The position numbers and the translations under genes are program-made. A stretch of 64,000 bases of DNA from Pyrinomonadaceae bacterium (lineage in GTDB: Bacteria > Acidobacteriota > Blastocatellia > Pyrinomonadales > Pyrinomonadaceae). Below the pieces are notes generated by a model, which did no database searches, had not been told where the DNA came from, and saw nothing but the letters and a program-made list of their open reading frames with translations. The DNA lies in assembly GCA_014380365.1 (NCBI GenBank), contig JACMJZ010000032.1:104860-168859 (forward strand). Reading direction: 5' to 3'. Of this stretch, positions 19,101-43,700 are shown piece after piece (the first letter of the stretch is position 1; every line of letters begins with the position of its first letter).

Positions 19101-22100
19101 CATCAATTGCTTTTTCCATGCGGGCACGCGTTTCGACGAGGTAGTTAACACTCGCAAGCCAGACTGTGACATCGTCGGACGTGGTGTGTGCATCCGCGAA
19201 ACTCTTATCTGGACCGGCACTCCTGACGGTTACGTTGAATAGATGCAGCCTGGTGGTGAAGTTGAGTTGGTAGGGTTGTCCCCACGGATCGCGTAGAGAG
19301 TCAAAATCGATTCCTTCGGCCCGCAATTCGTTTTTGAGCGTCGTGGCATTGCGGATGAAGCCGCCGGTGCGCGCGTGAAAGCGTTTGACCGCACGACTTA
19401 TGGCCTCGCCAGTGAAACGAAAATAAGACCGAGTGATCCGGGCGACGGAGGAATCATCCCCGGTAGTGAAGACTTTGTCCGGGCCGGCGCTAATGATTTC
19501 GAGAACGCTGTCGTCCTGGACTACGGAGAACAATTCCCGGTAAGGCGTGCCCCACGGGTCGCGCAGTTGATCAAAGTCTATTCCGGATTCAAACAGCAGG
19601 CGAAGAAGACTTTCGCGATTCGAGGGATAGGTGCCGGCGTCCGTATATTGAGTCTGAAGAAGGTCGGCAATCGGCTTAATGTGCAGACCTGTCAGGTTGG
19701 CAAAGACCCTTGTGTGATCTGTTTCAAACCCCTCATGGCTAAAGACGGCGCGCTCTACCTGCCGGGCTCCGAGAAGTAACTCGGCGACCAGTTCCATGTC
19801 GTCCGGCAGCGGCTTTGCAGGGTCTAGCCGCTGCAAGTCTTTGCGGGTGATGCCCCCGATCTGGTTGTCATATCCCTGCCACTCGCTGAAACTCCCGGAA
19901 AAACCAAACCGCCCTCCAAACTCCCGCTCGGTTCGTGCCCGCTCCTCGACTGCTTGATCGAAGATAACGATTCCCAGCGCGCTGTCGGCCGGTCGTCCGT
20001 CAGGCGCGAATACGCGAAAGTCCACCGTTGCACTCTCGCCCGGCTTGTAGGCGGGATGATCCAGACGCAACTCGACGTTAAGATCGCGATTCCGTGGGAA
20101 GAGAACCGTGCGAGAGCCGAACGGATGGTAGTAGTCGGAATATTCCGAAGTTCTGGAGTAGACGGAGATGGAAAGTTCATCCTGAAACTCGGGCCGGTAA
20201 GCGAGGGTGAATGTTGCTGCCCCGTCGTGCAGGGAGAGCGTTCGTGATTCGATGATGTGCGACTCGCGCGCGACGTCAACAACCATGTTCATTTCGGGCT
20301 TGCTCGCCGTGACGCTCACCCTGATTGGGTCGCCGCGCCGGTACAGAACTTTATCGGTTTCGACTCGAATCACCGGAACATCGCGATCGTAAAACGATTC
20401 CACGTGATGACCCAGCGACCCAGCGCCATTGCGTGCGGTGAAGGCGAGGGACAAGTTTCGCTCTCCGGATGTGGCCGGCAGTTTGAGTCCCGTGACTTTC
20501 GCGAGGCCATACTTGTTTGTGAGAATGGTCTGGAGAACAGGTGTGGGACTTCCGGGTTTGTCGTCCCCGCGGGCTGATTCGCTGATAGCGACCTCGCAAC
20601 GAGCGGGTGTGCCGTCGGCATAAGACGTTGCCAAATAGTATTGCATTGGGAAGTCCCGCGCCTGCCGGTTATTACCCTCGGTAACGTAAATGTGAATTGC
20701 CTCTTTCGTGAGCCGTAGATCGAAACGTCGCTGCTCTGTTCGGTTGCTCGTAGGATCAGTGAAATAGGCTGCGAACTTCAGATCCTTAAAGCGGGAATAT
20801 TCTTCCTCCGCCAGTTCTTTGTGGGCCTGCCTCAAATCAACGCGCGCCACAAAGCGTCCAGCGTCGTCGGTTTCGCCTTCATACTCTTCGCCCTCATCGA
20901 TGTCCCACTTCTGTTCGCGAAAATTCCATTCGCGCTCATCTTCCAGCACCACGCGCACATGGCCGCGTTTCACCGGTTGGCCGAAAAGATAGTCTGCGCG
21001 CACCTCGACGTCCGCGTTGTGTTGCGGCAGGTAGTAGGTGCGATCCGGTTTTACGTTGACGGCGAAGGTGGGCAGATCGTAACGGCTAATCTTGACGATC
21101 TGAAGTCCTTCGGAATCGCCATAGTTCTCTTCATCCATTTCAACGCGGATCGAGTAGTCGCCAAGGCGCGTATTCTCCGGAATGACCCAGTCGGCGTTGG
21201 CGACGCCAAAACGCGAGGTGACCAGGCTCGCCTCGAAAACGTTTGTATTTTCGGGGTCATTTATCTTCAGGGTAGCTTCGGCATTCGCCGCCGCCCGGTT
21301 AGCGGAATTGAAAACCAGCGCCCGTATGTGGAGCGCTTGTCCGGGTTGATAGATAGGCTTGTCCGTGGTGACCATGATGCGTGTACTGTTGCACACCTCG
21401 ATCTCGTCGCTCATTTCCCTGATGTACCCGCCATGCCGCGCCACTACTTTGAGGTCGCCATCGCCAGGGCGGGTGCTGGCTGGAACGTCAATGCTCACGA
21501 GCGCATAGCCGGAGTCGTCCGTTATTCCGCGGTTGGTGATCTTTGCTGCCGGAGCATCCTCATCAACCTGAAACTCGACGCCAATTTCGACACCCTTAAC
21601 GGGCTTCCGGGTTATGGGATTGAAAGCGCGAACATGCGTGTAGTGGCGAGTGCCCGCTTGCGTCTGGGCAGGAGCGGTCACTTCCAACGCAAAAATGTTT
21701 GGTGTGTCGATCTCCGAGAGTGAAATGACACCACTGACTGCGTCGAGGTTGGTCTTAGTTTCGCGGGATGGATCAATCCGATAGCGTAAGCGGTACCACG
21801 GCAGCGCCGTGTCACCGTCTTTAGTCAAGCTTCTCGCGGACAGCGCCAACGGAACAGTCAACTTGTTCAGGCCGGGTCGGAGCGCAAAATTGCGAACGCC
21901 TGATCCCTGAGCGGCGTCGTCGGGATCCAGGAGTTCCAGCCTTAGATGGACCGACAGCTCCTGGCTTAATGGGTTTACCACCTCCAGAATGACGATCACC
22001 TGATCCTCAATCAGAAACCTGGTGGCGGCCTCGTTAACCCGCAACCCGCTAGTAGCAGTTACCAGTTGGACAAAGAAAACGGCAAGCGAAAGGCCCAGGA

Positions 22101-22125
22101 GAGAGAAAAGCCATCTGCGGCTCAT
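16129..22125 (-). CDS. alpha-2-macroglobulin family thioester protein (1998 aa) with inserted GspG-like repeats and a CarboxypepD_reg domain
   Basis: Signal peptide. Thioester motif PYGCGEQ (CGEQ is aa 1487-1490, nt 17656..17667). MG-domain-like N-terminal half. Three DPWG repeats (aa ~800-1115). GVVTDPNGAVVPGIAVTA...DDEGRFILRNLPVGFYEV. Confidence 0.9.
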   Translation of the reverse strand: MSRRWLFSLLGLSLAVFFVQLVTATSGLRVNEAATRFLIEDQVIVILEVVNPLSQELSVHLRLELLDPDDAAQGSGVRNFALRPGLNKLTVPLALSARSLTKDGDTALPWYRLRYRIDPSRETKTNLDAVSGVISLSEIDTPNIFALEVTAPAQTQAGTRHYTHVRAFNPITRKPVKGVEIGVEFQVDEDAPAAKITNRGITDDSGYALVSIDVPASTRPGDGDLKVVARHGGYIREMSDEIEVCNSTRIMVTTDKPIYQPGQALHIRALVFNSANRAAANAEATLKINDPENTNVFEASLVTSRFGVANADWVIPENTRLGDYSIRVEMDEENYGDSEGLQIVKISRYDLPTFAVNVKPDRTYYLPQHNADVEVRADYLFGQPVKRGHVRVVLEDEREWNFREQKWDIDEGEEYEGETDDAGRFVARVDLRQAHKELAEEEYSRFKDLKFAAYFTDPTSNRTEQRRFDLRLTKEAIHIYVTEGNNRQARDFPMQYYLATSYADGTPARCEVAISESARGDDKPGSPTPVLQTILTNKYGLAKVTGLKLPATSGERNLSLAFTARNGAGSLGHHVESFYDRDVPVIRVETDKVLYRRGDPIRVSVTASKPEMNMVVDVARESHIIESRTLSLHDGAATFTLAYRPEFQDELSISVYSRTSEYSDYYHPFGSRTVLFPRNRDLNVELRLDHPAYKPGESATVDFRVFAPDGRPADSALGIVIFDQAVEERARTEREFGGRFGFSGSFSEWQGYDNQIGGITRKDLQRLDPAKPLPDDMELVAELLLGARQVERAVFSHEGFETDHTRVFANLTGLHIKPIADLLQTQYTDAGTYPSNRESLLRLLFESGIDFDQLRDPWGTPYRELFSVVQDDSVLEIISAGPDKVFTTGDDSSVARITRSYFRFTGEAISRAVKRFHARTGGFIRNATTLKNELRAEGIDFDSLRDPWGQPYQLNFTTRLHLFNVTVRSAGPDKSFADAHTTSDDVTVWLASVNYLVETRARMEKAIDEYFEQMHSFPRNDSELQQAFATSGIEAATLRDPWGHRFYASYKTEMRLADRTVIQSFATYGQLPKERMETTPVTHHVGFISLRSSGEDGKEGTADDFDVATFSRLTAELSRSGVPANQPSQRIFFPGSKGAIKGVVTDPNGAVVPGIAVTASLKNSSQNFETKTDDEGRFILRNLPVGFYEVRCEAPGFTKVTVLEVPVSSSNVTTVNFTLYPGTVSETVTVSAAADVMNMTSSSVATTITEGRLRVSIAHPMQLTTPRLREYFPETLVWQPSLETDKHGRAQLKFKLADNITTWKMSVIGSTEDGELGVAETEIKAFQPFFVEHDPPRVLTEGDQISLPIVLRNYLERGQAVDLEIKPESWFALLGPARQRADVPAGEASRQTFELKAVASVKDGKQRITARGSEASDAIEKPVTVHPDGEEKTQTASQVFGDTAMLNINLPASAIPGSTQAELKIYPGLMSHVIESIEGILKRPYGCGEQTISSTYPSLLVLRGNKQSETGSPIRAQAQRYARAGYQRLLNYRSTNGGFSYWGHGEPDLALSAYALRFLHDAAEFVSVDPEVVKGLRQWLVKQQHADGSWPASAYNSGQVDKLRGIALQTAFVARVLAMTEPQASTGGATAARTASPELKRALSYLSPKIEAIDEPHLIASYALAAIDAGDRPGASRAVARLRALARNEGDTTYWKLETATPFNGWGLAGEVETTALATQALARFAKTQPDLTTTRGQSADPVVSRGLLHLLRQKDRYGVWYSTQATINVLDTLTTLLATDISPDRQSAAQGTPVEVIVNGLLATSLQLPTREQNTGLVRADISRFLQPGANHVELRRSAGSGLASAQLVANYYVPWSAVASGDPAVNGAASSLRLSATFDKKAAGINDEIVCSVKAERVDYSRYGMMLAEIGLPPGADVDRASLESAMKASGGALSHYDVLPDRVVVYLWPRSGGVQFAFKFRPRLAMTAKTAPSLMYDYYNPDARVVVEPATFVVR

Positions 22126-22348
22126 GGCGGCCTCCTAAATTTTTTCGAAACCAAACCACGGCGGGAGACACACTACGACTCGACGAGAAACCAAGGAGTT
22201 TCACCGGCTGTCATTACTGCCAGAATTTGAAGGTAACTTTTGAGCCCGGGGAGAAGCTTTCAGATTTCGAGGGTGTGATGCGAGTGAGTTGCCGCTTGGT
22301 TGTCAGTATCTCGGAAACGAAAACGGAAGTTCGGACGCGGGCCGTGAG

Positions 22349-23254
22349 TCACTGAGTTAGCGCCCCGGCGATCTGAGCGGCGACGCGCGCGTTGTTTTCC
22401 AGCAGGGCGATGTTTGCCTCCAGCGTTGCGCCTTCGCTCATTTGGGCCATGCGCGACAGGAGAAACGGCGTCAGCTCGCGGCCGACGACATGTTGGCTTT
22501 CCGCTTTCCGTAACGCCGCATTTAATACGTTCTCTAAATCTGTCGCCGGAACTTCAAACTGCTCGGGCACCGGGACAGTTACCAATAGGGCGCGATTAAT
22601 TCCCAACGCTTCCTGAGCGCGGAAAACTGCGGCAACCTCCTCTGGCGAATCACAACGAGTATCGACAGGTAAACCGCTCGCGCGTGAATAGAAGGCGGGC
22701 ATCTCGTCGCAGCCGTATCCGACAACCGTGACGCCGTAAGTCTCAAGCCACTCGCGCGTCGCCGGTAGATCCAGAACGATCTTGGCCCCCGAACAAACGA
22801 CTACGATGGGCGTCGATGCGAGGACTGGCAAGTCCGCCGAAAGATCGGGCAAGGCGCCGCGATGAACGCCGCCAATTCCGCCGGTTGCGAATACCTTGAT
22901 CCCCGCGCGCTGGGCGATCCAGCTGGTTGAGGCAACGGTCGTCGCGCCGTTCCACTGCTGCGCGATCGCAATCGGAAGATCGCGGATACTGATCTTCCTG
23001 ATGTCGGCACCCTCGGCGACAAATCGGATTTGATCTTCGCTTAGTCCAACCGAAAGCTGGCCTGCGAGCACGGCGATCGTCGCGGGAAGGGCGCCGGCTT
23101 CTCTGACAATCTCTTCCAGCCGGCGGGCGGTTTCCAGATTCTGAGGGTGTGGCAGGCCATGCGCGATCACAGTTGATTCAAGCGCGACGATTGGCTTCTT
23201 TGTCTCCAGAGCTGATGAAACTTCAGAGCTAAGATTAAGAAGTAGTTTATCCAT
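22349..23254 (-). CDS. psuG: pseudouridine-5'-phosphate glycosidase
   Basis: VALESTVIAHGLPHPQN and GGIGGVHRG motifs of the IndA/PsuG family. Confidence 0.9.
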   Translation of the reverse strand: MDKLLLNLSSEVSSALETKKPIVALESTVIAHGLPHPQNLETARRLEEIVREAGALPATIAVLAGQLSVGLSEDQIRFVAEGADIRKISIRDLPIAIAQQWNGATTVASTSWIAQRAGIKVFATGGIGGVHRGALPDLSADLPVLASTPIVVVCSGAKIVLDLPATREWLETYGVTVVGYGCDEMPAFYSRASGLPVDTRCDSPEEVAAVFRAQEALGINRALLVTVPVPEQFEVPATDLENVLNAALRKAESQHVVGRELTPFLLSRMAQMSEGATLEANIALLENNARVAAQIAGALTQ

Positions 23255-23278
23255 TGTGGGTCAATCTAAATCAACGCT

Positions 23279-23407
23279 GGCGGGGGCAAGCCCCCTTCCT
23301 GACTTTCGAGATTATTCGACCCATGTCTTGGCCTGAGATCAAAGCTTGAAGAAAAGTAATTGCGACTCAGAAAGTCTCTAAGGTCAGGAAGGCGGGCTGG
23401 CCCCCGC
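23279..23407. repeat. MITE-like element, ~25-bp terminal inverted repeats GCGGGGGCAAGCCCCCTTCCTGAC
   Basis: Arms at 23279..23303 and 23383..23407 with a ~80-nt spacer. Same family as 33223..33357 and 40807..40881. The right arm contains the stop codon of the histidine kinase. Confidence 0.75.
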
Positions 23408-26400
23408 TCCTTTCAGTTGCAGCGTGAACACATTGGAGCCACTCTTCAGTTTGTCCCAGGAAATCTCCGCATCAATCAGACTCGCACGCGCGAGCATGTT
23501 TGCCAACCCGCGCCCGCTGCTTTTCTGGTTGGGATCAAGAGCGCGACCGTTGTCTTCGATCGTCAGGATGAAATTGGGCGCAGCGTGTACTTCCATCCTC
23601 ACGTGCGTGGCGCCGGCATGCCGGCAAATGTTACTCACCGACTCCTGCACAATGCGATAAATCTGCATTTGCACATTTCCCGGCAGTCGCGCGTGTTCCT
23701 CCAGATGTTCGTCGCAAACAAATTCGTACTCAAACCGCTGATCGGCCGGCGCATCCTGGACCGCATGGGAAAGCGCAAACTCCAGGGCCGCCGCGAACCC
23801 AACATTTTGAAGCACCGACGGACTCAGGTCTTCACAAATGCGCCGCACCTCCTGCGAGATTGATTCGATCTCACTGCGCAATGCGGCGGGGCCTGGTTGG
23901 GCATTGCGTTGCTGGCCACGTCGTTCACCCTCCCCGGGGTCACCGCTTGTTGGAAGCTGATCTGTTAGAAGTTGCAAGTGGCGCAGGTCGGCCAAAGTTT
24001 GATCGTGCAGGTCGCGCGCGATCCGGCGTCGCTCGCGTTCCGCTTCATTAGCGAGGTTGAGTCGCGCATCCGCCAGTTCGCGGTTCGCATCAACAAGCGC
24101 GGCGCTGGTGCGCGCAATCCGGCGCCTTTCGAGAATCGCCCAGATCAAGGCAAGCAGCGCCAGAGCCAGGAGAATGGCGAGCGCGGTTGAGGTCCATGGA
24201 AACGGCGACTTCGCAATAGCCAACTCAAACGACAACGGCTCCGAGGAAAGCAGATCCTTGCTGAACGCGCGCGCGGTGACTCGATACTTGCCCGCCGCTA
24301 GTCCTTCCATCGCAAACTGCGACTCGCGCGAGAGCCTCTGCTTGATGACCTTGCCGTTTCCGTCGAGCAGCGCAAACGAGTACTGAAACTGCTCCGGGAA
24401 AGTGCGACTGCTGATCGCCGCGACGTCCAGAAGCAAACTGTTTTGCGGATACTCGAGGCTGAGTCCTGACGCCAGTTCGCTGGGAGAATGCACGCGCTTG
24501 CTAATGACCCGAGTCGCATACAACGTGGGTGTTGTTCGGCCGGACTGGTAGCGCGCGATGCCGCGGCCCGTGCCGATGAGCACAGACTCGCTACCGTCCG
24601 GTTGAGACTCGGGACGAACTGCGAAGACGTTCTGCGAGGGCAGGCCCTGCTCGACGTCGAGTTGGGAAACCACCGGGCCAGCCTGATCGTCGAGCCTGAT
24701 CTTCAACAGCCCGTTTCCCGTGGTGGCGCACCACATCTCATTTCGTTTTGTTTCGGCATCGCGCGCGAGTGAACGCGCTTCGATTCCCGCTGCGGTCAGA
24801 ATGCACTCGCTGTCGGCCTTGCATAAATAGACGCCGCGATTCGTGGCGAACCACAACGTGTCGTCGAGCGTGCTCAGAATCGAGCGCACAGTGCTGCCTT
24901 TGAGTTTGGCGAAAGCCGGATCCTGCTTCACCTCGTTACCATCAAACGAGAGGACTCCGTCAGAGGCGGAGCCAACTAAGAGCCTGCGGTCGCCGTCGGC
25001 AAAAAGACTGATCACATCGCGTGGGACAGCGAGGTTTGCGCTCCAAAGATTCTGGAGCCGGCTCTCCTCAAGTCGCTCAACACCGCGCCCGTAGCTGGCG
25101 ACGTAAACCGATCCGCGAAATTGAGTGATGGCCCGGATGCTGCCGACCGCATCCGCATTACCGGAGCCGGCCTCAACTCTGTTGAAGCTGAGAGATTCGA
25201 GCTTCGTGTCCCTGGAAGGTCTTGTTCCCACATAGAAACCGCTGGCTGACCCGACGAGCAGACGTCCCTGATTGTCTTCGGCGATCGAATAAACGATATT
25301 CCGCGCGAGCCCGCCCACAGGGTTCCACTCAGACGATGAGGCGTCGTGAACGAAGAGCCCGCGGTTGGTTCCAGCCAACAGATGGCCCTCGGACGTTTGG
25401 TAAAACGTGCGCACGAAATTGCTTTCGGCCAGGTCGCCGATGGTCTCCACCCTGACCGCGTTTGGATCGAAACGACAGACTCCCCGGTCAGTTCCAAACC
25501 AAATCACGTCTTCGCGGTCCTGGAAAATCGTGTAGACGTGATCCGAACGCAAACCTCCTGCGGTGCCGTCAAACGTGTAACGCTGGACCTTCTTCCCTTC
25601 GGAGAAACGAAAGACGCCGCGTCCGTCAGTGGCAACCCAGACATCTTTTCCAATCGACTTAATACTCGTTACTGTCCCGGTCGGTGTTTCGTTGCGGACA
25701 AGTTTTTCCACTTCCCACCCCGTCAGAAGTGCCGGTTCCTCTTTCTTCACGCGCAGGCCGACCCAAAGTTTGCCGCTCGGATCCGCTTCCATCGAACGCA
25801 CAAAGAAACTTGTGGGCCGGGTTTCAATCTCGCGCGCCTGCCCGTCTGCAATCGCCAGCACGCCCCGACTGAACGAGCCGGCGAAGAGCGTATGGTTGAG
25901 CATCATCAAGCTCGTCAGTTGCAGTGCGCCCGGATTGTCGCGGTCGGCGCTTTGAAGTTGTTGAGTCAGCAGGGGCTCGGTCCGCCGTGATCCATCCGCC
26001 TGAATCCGGCAGTCGAAAATGTTTCCCTGCTCGGTAGCCAGCAGCGCACGACCGCTTTCAGGCGTGAGAATAGCAGCGATGGGGTGGCCGTTGATTTCCG
26101 TTATGGCTTCGAAACGGCCATCAACCATGCGTGCCGCGCCTGTTTCCGTGCCAATCCACAACGAGCCGTCCGCATCGCTTTGCAACGCCAGTACTCGGCC
26201 TGGCGCCAGACCGTTGATAGAGATGGTCTGAGTCCTGCGCCCGTCAAACTTTGCCAAACCCGCTTCCGTTCCAAACCACATCGCACCCTCCGGCCCCTGT
26301 GCGATCGCGTGCACCCGATCGGAAGGCAGGCCGTGAAAAAGTGTGACCGCGCCCCACTGGTGGAGCCCCGTAACGGGCGTCGGAGAAGGAGAAGGAGACG

Positions 26401-26593
26401 GCGATGGTGATGGTGAAGGACTTGGTGAAGGACTAGGGGAGGATCCAGGCTGAACCTCTTGAGATGAGGCAGGTGCCGGCGGTAGTAACGCGAGGGAGAA
26501 GGCAGTAAGCAGTAGGCAGAAGGCCGAAGGCAGGAAGAACTTGAAACGCAAAGGGCGCGAAGCAAGACGCAGAGAACGCGAAGCGATCCGCAT
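23384..26593 (-). CDS. sensor histidine kinase: periplasmic beta-propeller repeats plus Y_Y_Y-like region, TM, HisKA_3 and HATPase
   Basis: Repeated WFGT/WIGT/WVAT propeller motifs. H-box RRRIARDLHDQTLADL. ATPase IEDNGRAL...GRGLANM. Signal peptide and (SP)10 linker. Start taken at ATG 26593 (MRIASRSL). Confidence 0.85.
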   Translation of the reverse strand: MRIASRSLRLASRPLRFKFFLPSAFCLLLTAFSLALLPPAPASSQEVQPGSSPSPSPSPSPSPSPSPSPSPTPVTGLHQWGAVTLFHGLPSDRVHAIAQGPEGAMWFGTEAGLAKFDGRRTQTISINGLAPGRVLALQSDADGSLWIGTETGAARMVDGRFEAITEINGHPIAAILTPESGRALLATEQGNIFDCRIQADGSRRTEPLLTQQLQSADRDNPGALQLTSLMMLNHTLFAGSFSRGVLAIADGQAREIETRPTSFFVRSMEADPSGKLWVGLRVKKEEPALLTGWEVEKLVRNETPTGTVTSIKSIGKDVWVATDGRGVFRFSEGKKVQRYTFDGTAGGLRSDHVYTIFQDREDVIWFGTDRGVCRFDPNAVRVETIGDLAESNFVRTFYQTSEGHLLAGTNRGLFVHDASSSEWNPVGGLARNIVYSIAEDNQGRLLVGSASGFYVGTRPSRDTKLESLSFNRVEAGSGNADAVGSIRAITQFRGSVYVASYGRGVERLEESRLQNLWSANLAVPRDVISLFADGDRRLLVGSASDGVLSFDGNEVKQDPAFAKLKGSTVRSILSTLDDTLWFATNRGVYLCKADSECILTAAGIEARSLARDAETKRNEMWCATTGNGLLKIRLDDQAGPVVSQLDVEQGLPSQNVFAVRPESQPDGSESVLIGTGRGIARYQSGRTTPTLYATRVISKRVHSPSELASGLSLEYPQNSLLLDVAAISSRTFPEQFQYSFALLDGNGKVIKQRLSRESQFAMEGLAAGKYRVTARAFSKDLLSSEPLSFELAIAKSPFPWTSTALAILLALALLALIWAILERRRIARTSAALVDANRELADARLNLANEAERERRRIARDLHDQTLADLRHLQLLTDQLPTSGDPGEGERRGQQRNAQPGPAALRSEIESISQEVRRICEDLSPSVLQNVGFAAALEFALSHAVQDAPADQRFEYEFVCDEHLEEHARLPGNVQMQIYRIVQESVSNICRHAGATHVRMEVHAAPNFILTIEDNGRALDPNQKSSGRGLANMLARASLIDAEISWDKLKSGSNVFTLQLKGAGASPPS

Positions 26594-26655
26594 CAATTGG
26601 CGGGCAATTATTCCTTGCGACCTTTGCGGAAAGCTTTGCGTACTTTGCGGTGTGT
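26544..26655. repeat. imperfect hairpin of CGCAAAG-type words spanning the kinase start codon
   Basis: 26544..26592 carries GAAACGCAAAGGGCGCGAAGCAAGACGCAGAGAACGCGAAGCG. 26614..26655 carries CCTTGCGACCTTTGCGGAAAGCTTTGCGTACTTTGCGG. ATG 26593 lies in the loop. Same words as 54054..54127. Confidence 0.55.
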
Positions 26656-26657
26656 TT

Positions 26658-27431
26658 CTATTTCTTCCGTTGATTCGCACTCTTCTGTTCGTCTAAGAAG
26701 CGTTTCCCATCGCGCTCAAGCCAGGCTTCGAGTTCCTGGGCTGCCTTTTCCAGTTCGTCGTTGTTGAGTAGTCCACGTCGGAGCGCTTCAAAGAAGGCGC
26801 GCGTGCGTACATTGTAGGCGAGCTTTTCGTAAGCTTCGTGCGGCGTACCCTCCGCCGTTGAGGTGAAAAGCTTTTCGTAGAGCGTCGCCAGGCGGCTCTC
26901 CACGCCGCGCAGACTCAGCGAGCACTTCCGCGCAATCGCCCAGTTTGAAAGACCGAGCGCGAGATAGTAAAGCGCTTCTGATTCAAATTCAGTCAAGAGC
27001 GGCCGTTTGAACGAATCTTTGAACGCCGGATCGATCATGTCGGCGCCGTCTTCGAGTACCGCAGCTACGAAGCGGAGGAAACGCGACTCGGGATTGTTCT
27101 TGTGAATGAACCCGTAGGCCGGCGGCGGATCGACTGACTTAACAATCTTGCGGATCTCGTTGATATAAATTTCGTGTGGAAACTGCGTCCAGAAGATGAT
27201 GCGCGCGGAAGGGAAGTCGCGCCAGATAGCGCGCGCGGCTTTCACACCGGAAAGTTTGGGCATCTGGATGTCGAGGATGCAGAGCTCGGGCCGGTGCTCC
27301 AACGCCAGCTTGACCGTCTCCTCGCCGTCCGCTGCTTCCACGATGGGCAGGTGCGATGAAAACTCTTTGTCCAGAATCTCGCGCAGGTAGTGGCGCTGGG
27401 CCACGTTGTCTTCGGCAATTAGTATCGACAT
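26658..27431 (-). CDS. NarL/LuxR-type response regulator
   Basis: REC domain (MSILIAEDN..., ELCILDIQMPKLSG) and a GerE-type HTH (LTEFESEALYYLALGLSNWAIARKCSLSLRGVESRLATLYEKL). Lies directly upstream of the kinase. Confidence 0.85.
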   Translation of the reverse strand: MSILIAEDNVAQRHYLREILDKEFSSHLPIVEAADGEETVKLALEHRPELCILDIQMPKLSGVKAARAIWRDFPSARIIFWTQFPHEIYINEIRKIVKSVDPPPAYGFIHKNNPESRFLRFVAAVLEDGADMIDPAFKDSFKRPLLTEFESEALYYLALGLSNWAIARKCSLSLRGVESRLATLYEKLFTSTAEGTPHEAYEKLAYNVRTRAFFEALRRGLLNNDELEKAAQELEAWLERDGKRFLDEQKSANQRKK

Positions 27432-27574
27432 TGTGGCGATGATAGCCTGAAACGTCCCGCGCATAAACGTGGCATGCCACAGTTGCAATGACGGATCTGG
27501 CCACTGTGCGAGGATGCGACGGTTTGCTGGCAATCGGCTGTGCCACCCGATGTGCGGAAGGTCTCTTGGTAGCG

Positions 27575-27784
27575 TCAGCCATGATCGGTGTTCTCATCAA
27601 GGGCGAACATCTCTTCCACTGGCTTACCGAAGAGTTTCCCGAGCTTGATTGCGAGAGGCAGGCTGGGGTCGTACTTTTCCGTCTCGATTGCGTTTATGGC
27701 TTGCCGCGAAACGCCGACGCGCTGTGCAAGTTCCTCCTGCGTCCAGTTTTGTTCAGCCCGCAACACCTTCAAACGGTTCTTCAT
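27575..27784 (-). CDS. XRE-family HTH transcriptional regulator (69 aa)
   Basis: MKNRLKVLRAEQNWTQEELAQRVGVSRQAINAIETEKYDPSLPLAIKLGKLFGKPVEEMF. Confidence 0.85.
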   Translation of the reverse strand: MKNRLKVLRAEQNWTQEELAQRVGVSRQAINAIETEKYDPSLPLAIKLGKLFGKPVEEMFALDENTDHG

Positions 27785-27823
27785 TGTTCCGTCCCTCGTT
27801 CCCAACTGTTCGTTAGGGCGTTT

Positions 27824-28222
27824 TTATCGATACTTAAGCCAAGCTGCTGCGAAGCCGATGGCATACGGAATCAACAACACCAACGGCAGGTCGCGAGGAT
27901 CCCTGCCTGCCAGGAGCCCTTCAGCGCGGAAGTACCCAATCGCCCAAGCCGTTACCAGAGAGAGGGGGAAGGCAATCGCCAGGGCGTAGAGCTGGATCTG
28001 ACGTTGATATTCGTCCATATTGGCGAGCATGCGCGTGTAAAGGAAAATGAATGAGGCAAATCCTAATCCCATCAACGAGGTGACCAGCAGCCGGATGGGA
28101 TGTCCCGGAGGGTAAGAGCCGCGAAGCAGAACGTGAACGACGACGAGGCCGACGGTTAGACCGCAGAAAACAAGCACAGCGGTGGAACCCTTTGACGGCT
28201 TTTCTACTTCTTTATTGGTCAT
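27824..28222 (-). CDS. four-TM membrane protein co-transcribed with the XRE regulator
   Basis: Start at the internal ATG (MTNKEVEKPSKG). Four hydrophobic helices. The small-XRE-plus-membrane-partner arrangement is common. Confidence 0.6.
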   Translation of the reverse strand: MTNKEVEKPSKGSTAVLVFCGLTVGLVVVHVLLRGSYPPGHPIRLLVTSLMGLGFASFIFLYTRMLANMDEYQRQIQLYALAIAFPLSLVTAWAIGYFRAEGLLAGRDPRDLPLVLLIPYAIGFAAAWLKYR

Positions 28223-28276
28223 TTCATCACTCCTTCCATTTGTATAGCCTTTCTTCTTGAATTTCGAGCTGGAGGG

Positions 28277-28313
28277 AGAGTAAAGCATTCCTTCCTAAAT
28301 GTCAAGTATACTT
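28277..28313 (-). promoter_or_regulatory. sigma70-like promoter with overlapping palindrome
   Basis: Minus strand: TTGACA (28305..28300), a 17-nt spacer, TACTCT (28282..28277). The perfect palindrome AAGTATACTT (28304..28313) overlaps the -35 and is a possible XRE operator. Confidence 0.3.
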
Positions 28314-28560
28314 TACATAAAGATCATAAAGATCATTAGGGACGCGGTGGCTTTCTGAGGGGCGGGATAAACTACTCAGCATCGGGATGGAGGCGAGGGG
28401 CGGGTGGAAGGGGTCCAGGAGGGAGGAAGGACCTTGAGAAGACAGAGAAAATACGCGCGTCGCTGCCCTAGGTGACCCAGTAGATGGCAGGAGACGGACA
28501 CGGTTTTTCCACGGGTAAGCGACGGGATTCACCTGCCGGGGGCTTGCAGAGCCTGGTGCG

Positions 28561-29070
28561 CTACGGCTGGCTCGTCTCGTAGATCAGCACGCGTTTGCGC
28601 CCACCCCGGCCAATGAGGTAACCGCCCAGTGCGCCGACGCCTGCGCCAACTACCGTCAAGCCCGCGGTCACTGCATGGTCGATCTTCTCAAAGCCGCTGT
28701 TGTTACTTCCGCCCGCCGCGCCCAACGCAGCGCCGGCTCCTGCTCCCACTCCGAGACCAATTAGGGTCGCTTTCGTGGCCGATTTTTTTGTGACCTGGTG
28801 AACGCTGCGAACGTCCTCTCGCTTTACCTCGACAGGTTGGTTTTTGACAGAGAGCGACAGCGCAGAGTCAGAAACACCGCTCAGCTTTCCATCAACTGTC
28901 TTTCCGTTCTTGAGTGTTACGACCAGCTTGCTTCCTGATTCAACTGCAGTGAGCCGAGACCAGTCACCGGTTGGCGCGCTCGCAGTCTGGGCAAACAACG
29001 TAACAGGAGTGAGCAAAAGGGATGCAATCAGAACCATGCTTATCGTGAGTCTTCTGCTTCCAATACACAT
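28561..29070 (-). CDS. secreted protein with C-terminal glycine-zipper segment
   Basis: Signal peptide (ISMVLIASLLLTPVTLFAQTA). C-terminal LIGLGVGAGAGAALGAAGG...GLTVVGAGVGALGGYLIG. Confidence 0.6.
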   Translation of the reverse strand: MCIGSRRLTISMVLIASLLLTPVTLFAQTASAPTGDWSRLTAVESGSKLVVTLKNGKTVDGKLSGVSDSALSLSVKNQPVEVKREDVRSVHQVTKKSATKATLIGLGVGAGAGAALGAAGGSNNSGFEKIDHAVTAGLTVVGAGVGALGGYLIGRGGRKRVLIYETSQP

Positions 29071-29376
29071 AAGATTCTCCTTTGTGAACGGGCATGCAAC
29101 GTGGGGGCAAGTATCCTCGCCGTGAGTATGGAAGAGATTCTTACATTCCGTTTCAAACAGGATTGTAATAGTTGTGTATTCCTTCTGAAGTTGCGCGCAA
29201 CTCTACCTAAGATTGTAGGGGCGTCCCTCTGTGGGCGCTCCGAATCGGGCGGAATCCAGGGACGCCGTAAAGAATTAGGGTTCTACTCAACAGGAGGGCA
29301 ACCTTGACGAGCGTCGAACTTATTTGCACTATGGCGCTGCATTAACCCACGACATTTCCAGCCGGAAGGTATCGCG

Positions 29377-30660
29377 ATGCATCTGCAAAGAGTCCTGTAC
29401 ACAGTAGCCATTGGTCTGTTTTGCCTGTTCACCGTTAACGTCGCCGCCCAGCAACCTTCGGCTTCAGGCGGGCCACGCGACGAGAAACTCTGGCAGAAAG
29501 CCCTCCAGATTCATCGCAAAGCAGTCGTCATCGATACGCACAACGATGTGACCACCCCGATGACAAACGACGACTACGATCTCAGCGGCGCACCTCCAGT
29601 GCCTTACCGCACCAGCATCGAGCGCATGAAGCAAGGGGGTGTAACAGGACTATTCTTTTCGCTCTATATCCGGCCCTGGTATGTCGCCCATGGTGGATCG
29701 ACCCGCCGCACGCTCGACATGATCGACTCGGTCTATCGAGCGGTTGAGCGCCATCCGAGCGACTTGATGTTGGCCACTTCAACGCCCGACATTCGCCGCG
29801 CGAAGAAGCAAAAGAAGATTGCGGCGTTGATGGGCATCGAGGGCGGCCATGCGATTGAGAACTCGTTGGCGACGTTACGCGTGTTTCACCGGCTGGGAGT
29901 GCGGTACATGACACTGACGTGGAACAACACTAACGATTGGGCTGACGCCGGGCGTGGCGAGAAGAAGCATCATGGTCTCTCGGCATTTGGTGAAGAGGTT
30001 GTCCGGGAGATGAATCGTTTGGGAATGCTGGTGGACGTCAGCCATGTTTCTGACGAGACCATGAGCGATGCGCTCGACGTTTCGAAAGCGCCGATCATCG
30101 CTTCGCATTCATCGGCTCGCGCGCTTAGCAACGTGCCGCGAAATATTCCAGACGACTTGTTGCGACGCATCGCAAAGAATGGCGGCGTGGTGCAGGTAAA
30201 CTTCTACAGTGTCTTCGTCGACGCCGCGACCGTTACGCCGCAAAACAACGAACGCAATCGCCGCCTGAAAGCACAACAAGACGCGCTCGACGAGAAATAT
30301 AAAAACGACCCTGAGCGATTGGCGGAGGAAAGCGACAAACTTGACGCATCAAGTCCCCTTCCGCCGCTCCCGATTTCGAAGTTGATTGATCACATCGATC
30401 ATATCGTGAAGGTAGCTGGCGTCGATCATGTCGGCCTTGGTCCGGACTTTGACGGCGCTGTCGATATGCCTGAAGGCGCCCAGGACGTTTCGATGTTGCC
30501 CAATATCACCTATGAACTCCTCAAACGCGGCTACAGCGAGAAAGACATTCGCAAAGTGCTGGGTGAGAATTTTCTGCGAGCGTTTGCCGAAGCCGAGCGA
30601 GTTAGTAAAAGTTTGAGCAAGACGATCAGCGCTGACGGGAGTCTGAAAAGAATCAAGTGA
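29377..30660 (+). CDS. membrane dipeptidase (peptidase M19)
   Basis: Signal peptide, VIDTHNDV, MGIEGGHAIENSLATLRVFHRLGVRYMTLTWNNTNDWAD, and VDVSHVSD. Confidence 0.9.
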   Translation: MHLQRVLYTVAIGLFCLFTVNVAAQQPSASGGPRDEKLWQKALQIHRKAVVIDTHNDVTTPMTNDDYDLSGAPPVPYRTSIERMKQGGVTGLFFSLYIRPWYVAHGGSTRRTLDMIDSVYRAVERHPSDLMLATSTPDIRRAKKQKKIAALMGIEGGHAIENSLATLRVFHRLGVRYMTLTWNNTNDWADAGRGEKKHHGLSAFGEEVVREMNRLGMLVDVSHVSDETMSDALDVSKAPIIASHSSARALSNVPRNIPDDLLRRIAKNGGVVQVNFYSVFVDAATVTPQNNERNRRLKAQQDALDEKYKNDPERLAEESDKLDASSPLPPLPISKLIDHIDHIVKVAGVDHVGLGPDFDGAVDMPEGAQDVSMLPNITYELLKRGYSEKDIRKVLGENFLRAFAEAERVSKSLSKTISADGSLKRIK

Positions 30661-30686
30661 GAATTGGCAGGTTACAGACAGGACAA

Positions 30687-32459: not shown

Positions 32460-32467
32460 AGTCAAGC

Positions 32468-32535: not shown

Positions 32536-32558
32536 ACTTGAACGAGCCCTACACCAGG

Positions 32559-33245
32559 ATGAATAAGAATCTGATCATTGCTATCGACGGCCCATCCGGC
32601 GCCGGCAAGTCAACCCTGGGCCGCATGCTGGCACGGGCACTTAATCTTCTCTACATTGATACAGGTTCAATGTATCGCGCTGTGGCGCTGGCGGTGATGG
32701 AGTCGAGCCTGAGCGCAAAGGATGATGTGGCGGTAGGCGCTCTGGCTGGTCGTGTCGATATCGACCTCGAGGGCGACCCTGATTCTTTGAGGGTGACTCT
32801 GGAGGGTCGCGATGTCAGCGACGAGATTCGTTCCGAAGAAGTTACTGAGATGTCGTCAATTATCTCAACTATTCCCGCCGTGCGACGTGCAATGGTTGAG
32901 CGGCAACGCGAACTGGGACAGCGTGGCGCGGTGCTAAACGGGCGTGACATCGGCACGGTTGTGTTTCCCGATGCCCACGTGAAGTTTTTTCTCACCGCGT
33001 TGCCCAATGAGCGCGCGGAAAGACGTTTTCATGAGGACCGGACTCAGAATCCGAACGTGGATTTTGAGGAGACGTTTGCAGATATGAAGGAACGCGATCG
33101 GCGTGACTCCACGCGCGCGGATTCGCCGCTGAAGAGCGCGGACGATGCGATCCTTGTCGACTCGACCGGGTTATCGATCGATGAAGTGTTTGAAACGATG
33201 ATGTCGGTCGTCCAGGGGAAGAGCGGGGTCAGGCCCCCTTCCTGA
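32559..33245 (+). CDS. cmk: cytidylate kinase
   Basis: IIAIDGPSGAGKSTLGRMLARALNLLYIDTGSMYRAVAL. The last 6-8 codons and the TGA lie inside the repeat arm 33223..33246. Confidence 0.9.
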   Translation: MNKNLIIAIDGPSGAGKSTLGRMLARALNLLYIDTGSMYRAVALAVMESSLSAKDDVAVGALAGRVDIDLEGDPDSLRVTLEGRDVSDEIRSEEVTEMSSIISTIPAVRRAMVERQRELGQRGAVLNGRDIGTVVFPDAHVKFFLTALPNERAERRFHEDRTQNPNVDFEETFADMKERDRRDSTRADSPLKSADDAILVDSTGLSIDEVFETMMSVVQGKSGVRPPS

Positions 33246-33357
33246 CTGCGAGATTCTCCTACACGAATCTGAGAGCTCGGCTTGAAAGACGTTCAAGCTA
33301 GAATGGAAGAGGAGCGTTACATCATCTCGAAGGTTAGGAAGGCGGGCTTGCCCCCGC
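33223..33357. repeat. MITE-like element, same family as 23279..23407
   Basis: Arms GCGGGGTCAGGCCCCCTTCCTGAC (33223..33246) and GTTAGGAAGGCGGGCTTGCCCCCGC (33333..33357). The ~86-nt spacer begins TGCGAGATT, like the other copy (TTCGAGATT). Confidence 0.75.
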
Positions 33358-40764: not shown

Positions 40765-43700
40765 ATGGGTGGATCTGCATCAGGGATGAACGCTGTGGAA
40801 TCTCATGGTAAGGAAGGTGGGCTTGCCCCCGCTGGACTTGAGCGCCACTCAAGCAGCGGGGGTAAACCACCCTTCCTAACCTGTAAATTTGCGGCAGTTG
40901 CGGGTTTCCATGGAAGTGGCTCCCAGCAACGCTCCAGCGCTTTCTCGTTCGCGGTTCTCATTTCAATCCTGCTTGTTGCGTTTGTCAGCGCAGAGGCGGC
41001 TTCGACTTTTGAGGAGTATGAGGGGCGACTGATCCGATCGATCGAAATAACTTTTGAGGGCTCTCCAGCTGACCCGGGAGCGCAAGCAGAGTTTCTTTCG
41101 CTGCTTGCGATTGTTCCCAACACAGAATTTTCGGCGGTCGGTGTCCGCGATTCTCTCCAGGCCCTGTTTGTGTCAGAGCGGGTGGCGAATGCGCGAGTGG
41201 AAGTGTTTGAAGAAGGCGCGCCCAAAACGGGACCGCTCCGCCTGCGCTTTGTTATTACGCGGCAAGTGCAGATTGGGGACATCAGGCTCGATCTGGTTGC
41301 TCCCACCGGCACGCCGGTTTCCGAGGACGAGCTGCGCGCTCGCTTGAATTTGACCCAACCCGGCGCTCGACTTTCCCACCAGGTAATTCTGCGCAACTCC
41401 GACGAGCTCCAGGTCTATTTGCGAGACCGCGGTTACTTCAACGCGACGATTGAGACGGCGGAACAACTGGATCCCAGCGGCACGCGCGCCACTGTGACTT
41501 ACAAGATTGTTCCCGGCGAACAATCGCGTGTGGCGGCCTTCAATATCGACATCACCGGGTTTGACGTAAATACGGTTCGGCCGTCGCTGGCGCTGCAACC
41601 CAACGCGCCTTTCACCCGCGAAGCGCTCGGCCAGGACACCAATCGCATTCGCCAGGCTGTAATCGAGCAGGGAAATCTTTCACCGTTGCTCAACGAGGCG
41701 AGGGTGGAACGCGACCCCGAGAAGAACCAGATAACGATAACTCTCAAAGGCGTCGTGGGCCCGAAGGTCAATGTCATCGTCAAAGACTTCCCGCTTAGCG
41801 AGAAGACACAACGCGAGCTTTTGCCGGTCAAACGCGAAGGCAACATCGATATCTCTGCGATAGTCGAAGGCTCGCGCCGGCTGCGAAACAAATTTCAGGA
41901 GGATGGCTATTTCTTTGCTGAGGTATCTGCTGTGTGCACCGTCACACCGCCCACACCCGAGTTTGGCGAGAACGGCACGTCCGCGACTTGCGAGACTCTA
42001 AATCCTGAAACCCTGACTGGTCGTAACGTTGAGATCCGCTACGAGATCGAACCCGGCCGTCGCCTCAAGCTGACTGACATTCGTATCACCGGCACAAACA
42101 AACTGACGTTTGATGACGTCGCCGCCGATCTGAGAACTCAGAAAGCCAGCGCGATAGGCTTGATTCCGTTCCTCGGATACGGACGCGGCTACACCAGCCT
42201 CACGCTCCTGGAACAGGACCGGCGCACGATCGACTCTTACATGCGAGATATTGGTTACCGCCGCGTCCAGACAAAAGTGCTGCAGGGTGTTTCGGTCGAC
42301 GGTGAAAGCGTGATCATCACCTTTGAAGTAAACGAAGGACCGCTGACTCGAATTGCCGGTGCTGAAGTTCGCGGCAACAAAATCTATACCGACCAACGAC
42401 TGCGGGATCAGTTGAAGACTGTTATCGGCGCGCCTTTTTCCCGATCCCAGGCCCGAGCCGACGGCGACCGCGTGCTGGCGCTCTATTCACGCGAAGGTTA
42501 CCTCAACGCGCAGATTGATTTTTCCATCGTCGAGCTGCCGAAGCGTGGTGACGAAGAGCAGGTCAAGCTGCTTTACACGATCGCAAACGAAGGCGACAAG
42601 GTCTACGTCAATCACATCATCGTTAATGGCGTTACCGGCAGCGATAAGGCGATGCGGACCAAGCGCGCGGCGATCCTGCGCGTGATTCCGCTGGCCGAGG
42701 GCGACGTCTTGCGCGCCGACAGAATCGCCGAAAGCGAGCGCGAACTCTATCTCACAGACGCCTACCGCCAGGTGATAATTCGCACCGAGGCCGCCGGCGA
42801 AACCATTTCCGGCTTCAAGCGCCGCGATTTGATTATAGACGTCGAGGAAAAAAAGCCGCGCGTGATGGACTACGGCGGAGGATTTTCAACTGATACCGGA
42901 GCGCTCGGGTTGTTGGAGATCAGCAACGTCAACTTGCGGAATAAGCTGCGACATGGCGCCATGCGACTCAGGGCCAGCCGCCAGCAGCAACGCGTTCGAT
43001 TGGAATATTTGGATCCGCGATTCGCCCGGTATGGCGAAAGGCAGTTCGCGCCGCTGGGGCTGTCGCTGGAATACTCGCGCGATTCCACGGTGACGCGATT
43101 TTTCCGTTCCGCAATTGACCGCGGCACGATGGGCATCGTGCAACGGCTGGACGAGGAAGGCAATGCGCTGGACGAGTTTGGCCTGCGAGTCAATGAGCCG
43201 ACCATCAATCGCTTCACGGCCACGATCGAGACGCAACGAGTGCTCAATTCCAAAACGCGATCGATTCTGTTCGCTCGTTATAGTTATGAAGACGTGCGCC
43301 TGTTCAATCTCCAGAGTTTGCTGGTGAGACCGATCCTCGAGCCCGATCGCGCAGTCCGTCTCTCCCGGTTTGGAGTCTCATTCGTTCGCGACACACGCCA
43401 GCGATGCGAGCGAGGTTTGCTCGGCGCCGTCAGCACGAGAGACGAATCGGAAACCGGCGCGCCCGGCGAAGTCTGCCGCTACAATCAGCTCGACGCCACG
43501 CGAGGCGATTTCTTCAACATTGATTATGCGGTCGCTTTGCGCCAGCTGGGCGGAAACATTTCCTTCAACAGGATGCAGGCCACCTACCGTCGTTATTACA
43601 AACTCGGCGGTCTGCGCGGTACGGTGCTGGCCGGAAACGCGACCCTCGGTCTGGCCAACGTTTTCAGCCCGCGCGATCGCAACGGCAATGGTTTGGATGA

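What the first reader, a model, noticed from the sequence alone, without database searches (positions are those of the whole stretch)
23279..23407. MITE-like element (TIR GCGGGGGCAAGCCCCCTTCCTGAC) supplies the stop codon and last residues of the histidine kinase
The element is about 130 bp, with ~25-bp terminal inverted repeats (23279..23303 and 23383..23407) and an ~80-nt spacer. Its architecture and spacer opening (T(T/G)CGAGATT) match the copy at 33223..33357. The kinase gene reads into the right TIR on the minus strand and ends ...GAGASPPS-TGA, with the TGA at 23384..23386 inside CCTTCCTGAC. This is the same TIR-encoded PPS-stop ending seen in cmk. The pattern suggests insertion into gene 3' ends, with the element providing a ready-made terminus.
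Basis: seen in the sequence. Interest (0 to 1): 0.6.

Follow-up and report, generated by a model that had tools for sequence, protein, structure and literature searches.

The report
REPIN repeat ends a kinase gene
A 128-bp hairpin-forming mobile repeat, a REPIN of the kind copied by a REP-associated tyrosine transposase, sits on the 3' end of a sensor kinase gene in a soil acidobacterium and encodes its last eight residues and stop codon; the element is real, but this behaviour is already described for such repeats.

Summary
**Observation:** confirmed. Window 23280-23407 is an inverted doublet of a ~30-nt unit (GGTYRGGAAGGCGGGCTTGCCCCCGCTCTT). The kinase ORF (23384-26680, minus strand) reads through one unit and stops at a TGA inside it (...FTLQLK-GAGASPPS*).

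**The family:**
- About 99 units at 60 loci in this 5-Mb Pyrinomonadaceae genome.
- 0-239 units per genome across 61 congeners.

**Classification:** a REPIN/RAYT system, not a classical MITE.
- No target-site duplication.
- Units also occur singly and tail-to-tail.
- Termini are 91% alike, interiors 47%.
- In at least 16 related species a REP-associated tyrosine transposase gene (NCBIfam NF047646, 93.8 bits; HVH and YIHANP motifs) is flanked by these units.
- This genome's assembly has no orthologue of that gene, and one related genome (G008) holds only pseudogenes, so the family is probably orphaned here.

**Effect on genes:**
- Kinase orthologues without the repeat end differently (TLRKxxAAPxVSS*).
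- At least 10 species have a tail coded by this unit.
- cmk shows the same in at least 17 of 30 orthologues.
- The coded tail lies beyond the catalytic domain and is probably neutral.

**Verdict:** a new member of a known kind. REP termini supplying stop codons were reported in 2013. Interest is modest.

The parts
23280..23407 (.). REPIN: head-to-head doublet of the REP-like unit, 128 bp core to core, between the kinase and the psuG-like gene
   Evidence: I24; fold -71 kcal/mol, z -7; profile hits C8:128139-128272, which is window 23280-23413
23280..23311 (-). Left unit, 20-nt core variant GGAAGGGGGCTTGCCCCCGC read on the minus strand. Its outer end lies 25 nt from the psuG-like start codon.
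23375..23407 (+). Right unit, 21-nt core variant GGAAGGCGGGCTGGCCCCCGC with foot GTCAGG. The kinase is translated through it on the opposite strand.
23384..23410 (-). Unit-encoded end of the kinase: GGA GCG GGG GCC AGC CCG CCT TCC TGA, giving G-A-G-A-S-P-P-S-stop
   Evidence: Orthologue comparison.
23384..26680 (-). Sensor histidine kinase CDS (Reg_prop repeats, HisKA_3, HATPase_c), 1098 aa. The start codon was not verified.
22349..23254 (-). Downstream co-directional gene, pseudouridine-5'-phosphate glycosidase-like (Indigoidine_A family). In several orthologous loci it abuts the kinase directly.
33223..33357 (.). Second REPIN of the same family. Its left unit encodes the last residues and the TGA of cmk.
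32538..33245 (+). Cytidylate kinase CDS ending ...GKSGVRPPS*. The Cytidylate_kin domain ends at residue 226 of 235.
40799..40888 (.). Third locus of the family: two units tail-to-tail around a 24-nt palindromic spacer
   Evidence: (D3)

Best explanation
The element is a REPIN: two copies of a ~30-nt REP-like unit (foot GTNRGG, then GAAGG, a short G+C hairpin with a TT loop, then GCTCTT) in head-to-head orientation around a ~75-nt poorly conserved spacer.

**Mobilisation.** The family belongs to a REP-associated tyrosine transposase (RAYT, a class 2 Y1/HUH enzyme). By analogy with E. coli TnpA_REP and IS200/IS605, that enzyme should recognise the unit as a single-stranded hairpin and copy it in trans without a target duplication. 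This step is inferred, not shown.

**Effect here.** Copies lie almost only in spacers next to gene 3' ends. A unit overlaps the last codons of the kinase. Translation runs from the unit's outer end through 8 codons (GAGASPPS) to the TGA, which is the complement of the unit's GTCAGG foot. It replaces the ~10-residue tail seen in repeat-free orthologues. The new tail lies after the HATPase_c domain and is probably neutral.

**Transcript.** The REPIN also places a strong hairpin between the kinase and psuG-like cistrons. This could stabilise or attenuate the transcript, but that was not tested.

**Status in this genome.** The family appears orphaned, because no cognate RAYT is in the assembly.
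For: **Family size and form**
- 99 units at 60 loci, with 34 head-to-head pairs, mostly 130-146 bp between profile-hit bounds (128-136 bp core to core).
- Termini are 91% pairwise identical and interiors 47%.
- Single units and tail-to-tail pairs also exist.
- No target-site duplication at any offset.

**Position relative to genes**
- Only 3 of 58 typed loci are in divergent spacers, against 23% of spacer length (P = 2e-4).

**Distribution**
- 0 to 239 units per genome in 61 congeners, with forward and reverse counts about equal and 1 hit in total (one genome) for the reversed-pattern control.
- All listed exact matches to the motif in the GTDB species representatives are in Acidobacteriota, Blastocatellia or Pyrinomonadaceae MAGs, apart from two titled only 'bacterium'.

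**Cognate transposase in relatives**
- The G047 gene (201 aa) scores 93.8 bits against NF047646 'REP-associated tyrosine transposase' (cut-off 80).
- It also matches Pfam Y1_Tnp and PDB 4er8 TnpA_REP at E = 4.8e-5, with HVH and YIHANP aligned.
- It is flanked by 3 units upstream and 2 inverted units downstream.
- The same arrangement appears in at least 16 of 24 species loci.
- The flanking unit changes along with RAYT divergence.

**Gene ends**
- Kinase and cmk orthologue tails are compared.

**Literature**
- REPs lie mainly downstream of coding regions and their termini often provide stop codons (PMC3733652).
Against: - No RAYT orthologue is in this genome. The best match is 30% identical and has its own, different repeat. 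Mobilisation here is therefore historical or depends on an unassembled gene; the assembly is 95% complete in 34 contigs.
- The single unit is only a weak hairpin (-6.2 kcal/mol, z = -0.9).
- The foot is GTNRGG, not the canonical GT[AG]G.
- Transposition has not been observed.
- Across genomes, RAYT presence and unit count are only loosely linked. Of genomes with the RAYT, 14 of 24 have at least 30 units; of those without, 11 of 37 do (Mann-Whitney P = 0.02; genomes are not independent and many are incomplete MAGs).
- The strong conservation of the termini without a resident RAYT is unexplained.
Confidence: 0.82

Rival explanations
1. It is a classical MITE: an internally deleted DDE-transposase insertion sequence, mobilised through its terminal inverted repeats and leaving target-site duplications.
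For: It has ~25-30-nt terminal inverted repeats, a uniform length of ~130 bp, no coding capacity and many copies.
Against: - No direct repeats flank 27 clean copies at any offset or length tested.
- Units occur singly and tail-to-tail, which a unit-length MITE should not do.
- No recurrent transposase-like ORF other than Y1 genes lies near the motif in 118 loci from many genomes.
- The arms flank a RAYT gene in many species.
Confidence: 0.05
2. It is primarily a host regulatory element, such as a transcription terminator or attenuator, an mRNA stabiliser or a protein-binding palindrome. On this view selection for that function, not mobility, keeps it next to 3' ends.
For: - The fold is strong.
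- Copies are almost all next to 3' ends.
- Termini are far better conserved than interiors even without a resident RAYT.
- REPs have known effects on mRNA stability, termination and translation in E. coli (own knowledge; summarised in PMC3733652).
Against: - There is no terminator-type U tract on the transcribed strand. The single consensus hit is on the antisense strand and is within the number expected from shuffles.
- The distribution among congeners is patchy, from 0 to 239 units.
- The unit is linked to, and changes along with, a RAYT.
- A regulatory function may have been added secondarily, but it does not explain where the element came from.
Confidence: 0.08
3. The ...AGASPPS tail is a native, selected C-terminal motif of these proteins, and the DNA repeat similarity follows from the coding sequence.
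For: The same PPS* ending occurs on two unrelated proteins here. Tails coded by this unit persist in at least 10 kinase and at least 17 cmk orthologues.
Against: - The same sequence occurs about 99 times, almost always non-coding and in both orientations.
- Repeat-free orthologues have unrelated tails.
- The tail lies outside the Pfam domains.
- In several species the unit-coded tail is decayed or truncated, for example KSGG*, KRAAA* and GRAAVSHP*.
Confidence: 0.02

Closest known systems
REPIN-RAYT systems of Pseudomonas fluorescens SBW25 and other Gammaproteobacteria (Bertels & Rainey 2011, PMC3116915; PMC3337134)
   Same: - Inverted doublets of a short unit that fold into a long hairpin.
- A spacer less conserved than the units.
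- Tens to hundreds of extragenic copies.
- A low-copy RAYT flanked by the units.
- Several families, each with its own RAYT, in one genome.
- Orphaned families where the RAYT has been lost.
   Different: - The phylum is Acidobacteriota (Pyrinomonadaceae).
- The unit sequence is unrelated, with foot GTNRGG rather than GTAG and a very short hairpin.
- This genome has no cognate RAYT.
E. coli REP/BIME with TnpA_REP (REPtron; PDB 4er8)
   Same: The transposase is homologous, with HUH and Y---NP motifs aligned. Units flank the gene in inverted orientation. The repeats lie after gene 3' ends.
   Different: E. coli REPs are ~35 nt with long bulged stems and a GTAG foot. Sequence identity of the enzyme is low (E = 4.8e-5).
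GTAG/CGTC REP super-families and TIRYT/TIRtrons, including those of Acidobacteria (Di Nocera et al. 2013, PMC3733652)
   Same: That paper reports several features also seen here:
- REPs mostly downstream of coding regions, between co-directional and convergent genes.
- Loops that often fit the consensus TY.
- Predominantly head-to-head dimers.
- REP termini that 'often provide the stop codon' to flanking ORFs.
- RAYT-like genes with repeat families in Acidobacteria such as Koribacter.
   Different: There the stop is the TAG of the GTAG foot, met by an ORF entering at the foot. Here the ORF enters at the opposite end, is translated through the whole unit (8 codons), and stops at the complement of the foot. 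This particular family and its host clade were not described there.
Rickettsia palindromic elements (RPE) and bacterial MITEs such as Correia/NEMIS, ERIC and RUP (own knowledge; listed in PMC3733652)
   Same: These are small palindromic repeats that can become part of coding sequences or alter gene ends, and that form hairpins in mRNA.
   Different: RPEs insert in frame inside genes. Correia, ERIC and RUP elements are TIR-plus-target-duplication elements tied to DDE transposases. Neither description applies here.

Membership tests
REP/REPIN-RAYT system | Short repeated unit present in many, mostly extragenic copies | tested here: met
   99 units at E < 0.05 in 60 loci. Five loci fall inside crude ORF calls.
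REP/REPIN-RAYT system | Units paired in inverted orientation to give a long hairpin, with the spacer less conserved than the units | tested here: met
   34 head-to-head pairs. The fold is -71 kcal/mol (z = -7). Termini are 91% and interiors 47% pairwise identical.
REP/REPIN-RAYT system | The unit is itself a palindrome (stem-loop) | tested here: inconclusive
   The stem is 5-6 bp, GGGGGC/GCCCCC or a bulged variant. The fold is -6.2 kcal/mol, no better than shuffles. One sub-family has a compensatory C:G to T:A change at the loop-closing pair, GGGTTTACCC.
REP/REPIN-RAYT system | A cognate RAYT gene flanked by the units in inverted orientation | tested here: met
   Met in relatives: G047, G007 and at least 14 further species loci. 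Not met in this genome, where no orthologue was found.
REP/REPIN-RAYT system | The transposase is a class 2 Y1 enzyme (HUH motif and Y---NP) at low copy number | tested here: met
   NF047646 scores 93.8 bits against a cut-off of 80. Motifs are PDHVHLIV and NYIHANP. PDB 4er8 matches at E = 4.8e-5. Most genomes hold 1 copy, at most 4.
REP/REPIN-RAYT system | Conserved 5' GT[AG]G tetranucleotide foot | tested here: not met
   The foot is GTNRGG: GTTGGG 25, GTCAGG 18, GTCGGG 15, GTTAGG 7. It resembles the canonical tag but is not identical. The cleavage site is unknown.
REP/REPIN-RAYT system | Demonstrated mobility | not testable with these tools
   The evidence is indirect only: presence or absence at orthologous kinase and cmk sites.
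Classical bacterial MITE (DDE IS derivative) | Terminal inverted repeats on a short non-coding element | tested here: met
Classical bacterial MITE (DDE IS derivative) | Target-site duplication flanking the copies | tested here: not met
   No 2-5-nt direct repeats above the null at offsets 0-6 in 27 copies. The AAGA/TCTT flanks are inverted, so they belong to the arms.
Classical bacterial MITE (DDE IS derivative) | A parent IS with the same arms that encodes a DDE transposase | tested here: not met
   No recurrent transposase family lies near the motif in 118 loci from many genomes. Only Y1 genes are associated with it. The search was limited to the fetched loci.
Intrinsic terminator | G+C hairpin followed by a U tract on the transcribed strand | tested here: not met
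   The only consensus hit is on the + strand, antisense to both genes, and is within the number expected from shuffles.

The most novel reading that the evidence does not exclude
Placement of these REPINs on or against stop codons may not be passive. Unit-coded tails were gained or lost at the kinase 3' end at least 5 times, mostly at one identical junction. Unit-coded tails occur at cmk in at least 17 species. Four or more different REP families occupy the same kinase-psuG spot in different species. Together these would fit either site-directed integration at translation-termination regions, or selection for a stop-proximal hairpin that tunes translation termination and operon polarity. A whole intergenic 'REPIN layer' with at least 8 families in one genome might then act as a regulatory system in Pyrinomonadaceae.
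Probability: 0.12. Interest if true: 0.55.

Novelty: new member of a known kind. Interest (0 to 1): 0.3.

Why it matters
- **Extension of known biology:** it extends REPIN-RAYT biology, studied almost entirely in Proteobacteria, to an uncultured-rich soil clade (Acidobacteriota, Pyrinomonadaceae). There, several RAYT/repeat families fill most intergenic gaps.
- **Annotation:** units create or move stop codons, add 8-10-residue tails to real proteins (the kinase, cmk and a 975-aa protein), create spurious ORF ends, and break MAG contigs.
- **Evolution:** it is a clear case of a mobile repeat repeatedly rewriting the C-terminus of conserved genes without touching their domains.
- **Limits:** it does not reveal a new mechanism. 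REP termini supplying stop codons and REP-encoded peptide segments are already in the literature.

Tried and rejected
- **Rfam:** a scan of 22000-42000 at E ≤ 1 found nothing relevant.
- **Fuzzy regex:** a genome-wide run timed out and was replaced by blastn and an nhmmer profile.
- **Target-site duplication:** none found.
- **RAYT next to the motif in this genome:** 9 Y1_Tnp and 8 NF047646 hits, none within 1 kb of a unit. At least seven are flanked by a different repeat family.
- **Y1 ORFs in the 118 motif-bearing loci from public genomes:** 4 found, none adjacent to the motif. No other recurrent gene family was found near the motif.
- **Single-origin test for the unit-coded kinase tail:** rejected. 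The tree needs 8 changes, at least 5 of them forced by well-supported branches. Repeated insertion versus recombination was not resolved.
- **Terminator scan:** no support.
- **'Hugging' of stop codons:** I considered treating it as evidence of targeting. I rejected that as proof, because pre-insertion spacers in this compact genome are already only 0-60 nt.

Full report
**1. Observation**

- The left arm is 23280-23303, GCGGGGGCAAGCCCCCTTCCTGAC.
- The right arm is 23383-23407, GTCAGGAAGGCGGGCTGGCCCCCGC. It is the reverse complement of the left arm apart from one extra C and one mismatch.
- The motif occurs three times in the window against 0.02 expected.
- The whole 139 nt folds at -71 kcal/mol (z = -7.0), and at -61.8 kcal/mol on the strand transcribed with the kinase.

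The minus-strand ORF 23384-26680 encodes a 1098-aa sensor kinase with Reg_prop repeats, HisKA_3 and HATPase_c. It ends ...VFTLQLKGAGASPPS*, with the TGA at 23384-23386 inside the arm. HATPase_c ends at residue 1089, so the arm-coded residues lie beyond the catalytic domain.

The copy at 33223-33357 has the same build and ends cmk (...GKSGVRPPS*). The Cytidylate_kin domain ends at 226 of 235 residues.

**2. The family in this genome**

The window is C8:104860-168859 of a 4.98-Mb, 34-contig, 55% G+C assembly. Titles of public contigs holding the exact motif place it in Acidobacteriota, Blastocatellia, Pyrinomonadaceae.

A profile of the unit finds 99 units at E < 0.05 in 60 loci.
- 34 loci are head-to-head pairs, mostly 130-146 bp between profile-hit bounds (128-136 bp core to core).
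- Shorter pairs, single units and tail-to-tail pairs also occur. One tail-to-tail pair is in the window at 40799-40888.
- The consensus is AAGAGCGGGGGCAAGCCCGCCTTCCYRACC ... GGTYRGGAAGGCGGGCTTGCCCCCGCTCTT.
- Pairwise identity is 91% for the termini and 47% for the interior. The interior keeps only a central CTTGAAAG-N-TTCAAG hairpin and a few short words.
- No target-site duplication is detectable. The AAGA/TCTT flanks are inverted, so they are part of the arms.

**3. Position relative to genes**

I used crude ORF-based gene calls (3781 genes, 87% coding).
- 55 of the 60 loci lie next to at least one gene 3' end.
- Only 3 of 58 typed loci lie in divergent spacers, which make up 23% of spacer length (P = 2e-4).
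- Of 51 units with a converging gene end within 200 nt, most lie 1-23 nt from the stop codon.
- Five units contain the stop codon. Three are in the ...PPS frame: the kinase, cmk and a 975-aa protein ending PPSRP*. Two end ...ERG* at the TAA of a GGGGGTAAAC sub-variant.
- Only 25 of 81 units carry the GTCAGG or GTTAGG foot that gives TGA or TAA in that frame.

Repeat-free orthologous spacers are only 0-60 nt long. Closeness to stop codons is therefore largely expected and is not proof of targeting.

**4. Cognate transposase**

This genome has nine Y1_Tnp-like ORFs. At least seven are flanked by their own, different palindromic repeat family, and none is flanked by this unit.

I then searched Y1_Tnp in the congeners richest in the unit.
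- In G047 (239 units) a 201-aa gene has three units upstream and two inverted units downstream.
- G007 shows the same arrangement.
- The G047 protein scores 93.8 bits on NCBIfam NF047646 'REP-associated tyrosine transposase' (cut-off 80).
- It matches Pfam Y1_Tnp and E. coli TnpA_REP (PDB 4er8, E = 4.8e-5), with HVH and YIHANP aligned.
- YIHANP fits the class 2 signature Y---NP of PMC6006769.

Its orthologues (60-79% identical) were found in 24 of 61 congeners, mostly as one copy.
- In at least 16 of the 24 fetched loci they are flanked by units, '+' upstream and '-' downstream, within about 30-150 bp. The chance expectation is about 1% per gene.
- The flanking unit changes as the RAYT diverges. 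Variants include GGGCGGTTTACCCCCGC, and forms where the TT loop is expanded to about 50 nt while the GGAAGG and CCCCCGCTCTT feet are kept.

This genome has no orthologue; the best match is 30% identical. G008, which carries a decayed copy of the element at the same kinase site, has two copies with internal stops. The family therefore looks orphaned here, although a 95%-complete assembly cannot prove absence.

**5. Distribution**

With up to 2 mismatches, the 21-nt core occurs 0 to 239 times per genome in 61 congeners. Forward and reverse counts are about equal, and the reversed-pattern control gave 1 hit in total, in one genome.

Genomes with the RAYT have more units: median 40 against 4, and 14 of 24 against 11 of 37 have at least 30 units (P = 0.02). 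This link is weak, for three reasons:
- the genomes are related to one another;
- many are fragmented MAGs;
- RAYT-positive genomes with diverged units escape the strict pattern.

**6. Orthologous sites**

*Kinase.*
- Repeat-free orthologues end in a shared tail, TL[RK]KxxAAPxVS[SG]*, or in other short tails. Five abut the psuG-like gene directly.
- At least 10 species have a tail coded by this unit (LQLK-RAAASRPS*, LHLK-TAGASRPS*, LHLK-KAGASPPS*, LQLR-RAGASHPS* and others). The unit is intact in some and decayed or truncated in others (GRAAVSHP*, KRAAA*).
- G181 has a different junction (TLKKEVK-AGASPPS*), which indicates a separate insertion.
- In G179 the tail is the first ~16 nt of this unit followed by a unit of another family, which supplies a TAG.

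On a tree of the C-terminal 338 residues the unit-coded tail needs 8 changes, at least 5 of them forced by well-supported branches. This genome sits in a 100/98 clade whose five other members lack the element and mostly carry other repeat families at that spot. Repeated insertion and recombination of the 3' end cannot be separated with these data.

*cmk.* At least 17 of 30 orthologues end in the unit or a remnant of it (KSGGMPPS*, KSGGKPAFPT*, KSGGKPPSQP*, KSGG*, KSV*). More distant orthologues have unrelated tails.

**7. Mechanism**

Shown:
- the unit is transcribed and translated as the last 8 codons plus the stop of the kinase ORF;
- the family is tied to a RAYT in relatives;
- copies are gained or lost at orthologous sites.

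Inferred from homology to TnpA_REP and IS200/IS605:
- single-strand hairpin recognition and copying in trans without a target duplication.

Inferred and untested:
- the tail is neutral;
- the ~-62 kcal/mol hairpin between the kinase and the psuG-like gene affects mRNA stability or read-through. No terminator-type U tract is present on the transcribed strand.

**8. Comparison with known systems and novelty**

The anatomy matches REPINs (PMC3116915), REPtrons and the REP families catalogued in PMC3733652. That paper already states the following:
- REPs lie mainly downstream of coding regions;
- head-to-head dimers predominate;
- many loops fit the consensus TY;
- REP termini often provide stop codons;
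- Acidobacteria have RAYT-like genes with repeat families.

Three things differ here. The host clade is different. The unit has a GTNRGG foot and a very short stem. The ORF enters at the non-foot end, so a whole unit is translated before the stop.

This is a new member of a known kind. It is well supported, useful for annotation, and of modest general interest.

Noticed in passing
window 62146-62234; 9178-9329; 32462-32541 and 45205-45239; 57718-57925; genome loci L001-L008: This genome carries at least 7 other RAYT-like genes, each flanked by its own palindromic repeat family. Several families appear in the window: the 62146-62234 hairpin matches the flanks of the ORF at C9:301-471; 9178-9329 matches the flanks of the C7:278190 gene; 32462-32541 and 45205-45239 match the flanks of the C1:99976 gene; and the CTGGGAGCGCAG word noted at 57718 occurs in the flanks of the C33:106015 gene. 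The C9 ORF has NHVH and YVLLGQ motifs, like class 3 of PMC6006769.
   Followed up: partly
L194-L222 (kinase-psuG junction in congeners): The same intergenic spot holds at least four different repeat families in different species: the GCGGCTTTGCCGCC...GTGCGGAAAGGC type in many; GCGGGCGCCCTCGCCCGC in G009; GGCCCGAAGGGCC in G189; and the GTCAGTACC...GCGGTAGCGGG type in G179. In G179 that last family, not the one studied here, supplies the kinase's TAG stop.
   Followed up: partly
window 11645-11740 and 34114-34224: A further inverted-repeat family (GTYAGWACCGCCTGCGGTAGCGGGCGGG) has a GTAG-containing core. No RAYT flanked by it was found among the nine Y1-like ORFs of this genome.
   Followed up: no
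window 33334-33873 (minus strand): A 179-aa ORF antisense to the riboflavin-synthase-like gene ends ...LRAGASPPS in the right arm of the cmk REPIN. It is almost certainly spurious. It shows how these units can create false ORF ends.
   Followed up: no
G008 loci (L192 and G008:C1:623480-623923): Both copies of the cognate RAYT in G008, which carries a decayed copy of the element at the same kinase site, have internal stop codons, yet that genome still holds about 114 units. This looks like a family in the process of being orphaned.
   Followed up: partly
L187, L188, L190 (G013, G064, G070): In diverged members of the RAYT clade the flanking unit keeps the GGAAGG and CCCCCGCTCTT feet, but the 2-nt loop is replaced by 15-50 nt of extra stem-loop. 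This may be a route by which new REP families arise.
   Followed up: no
genome C2:91-125, C17:33-164, C9:301-471: Several contigs begin in or next to REP units or a RAYT-like gene. These repeats probably break the assembly, so RAYT genes embedded in repeats may be under-assembled in MAGs.
   Followed up: no
genome C20:396569-396709: An 83-aa ORF matches only the C-terminal third of the RAYT model (E = 3.7e-9). It is probably a RAYT remnant and is not near any unit of this family.
   Followed up: no
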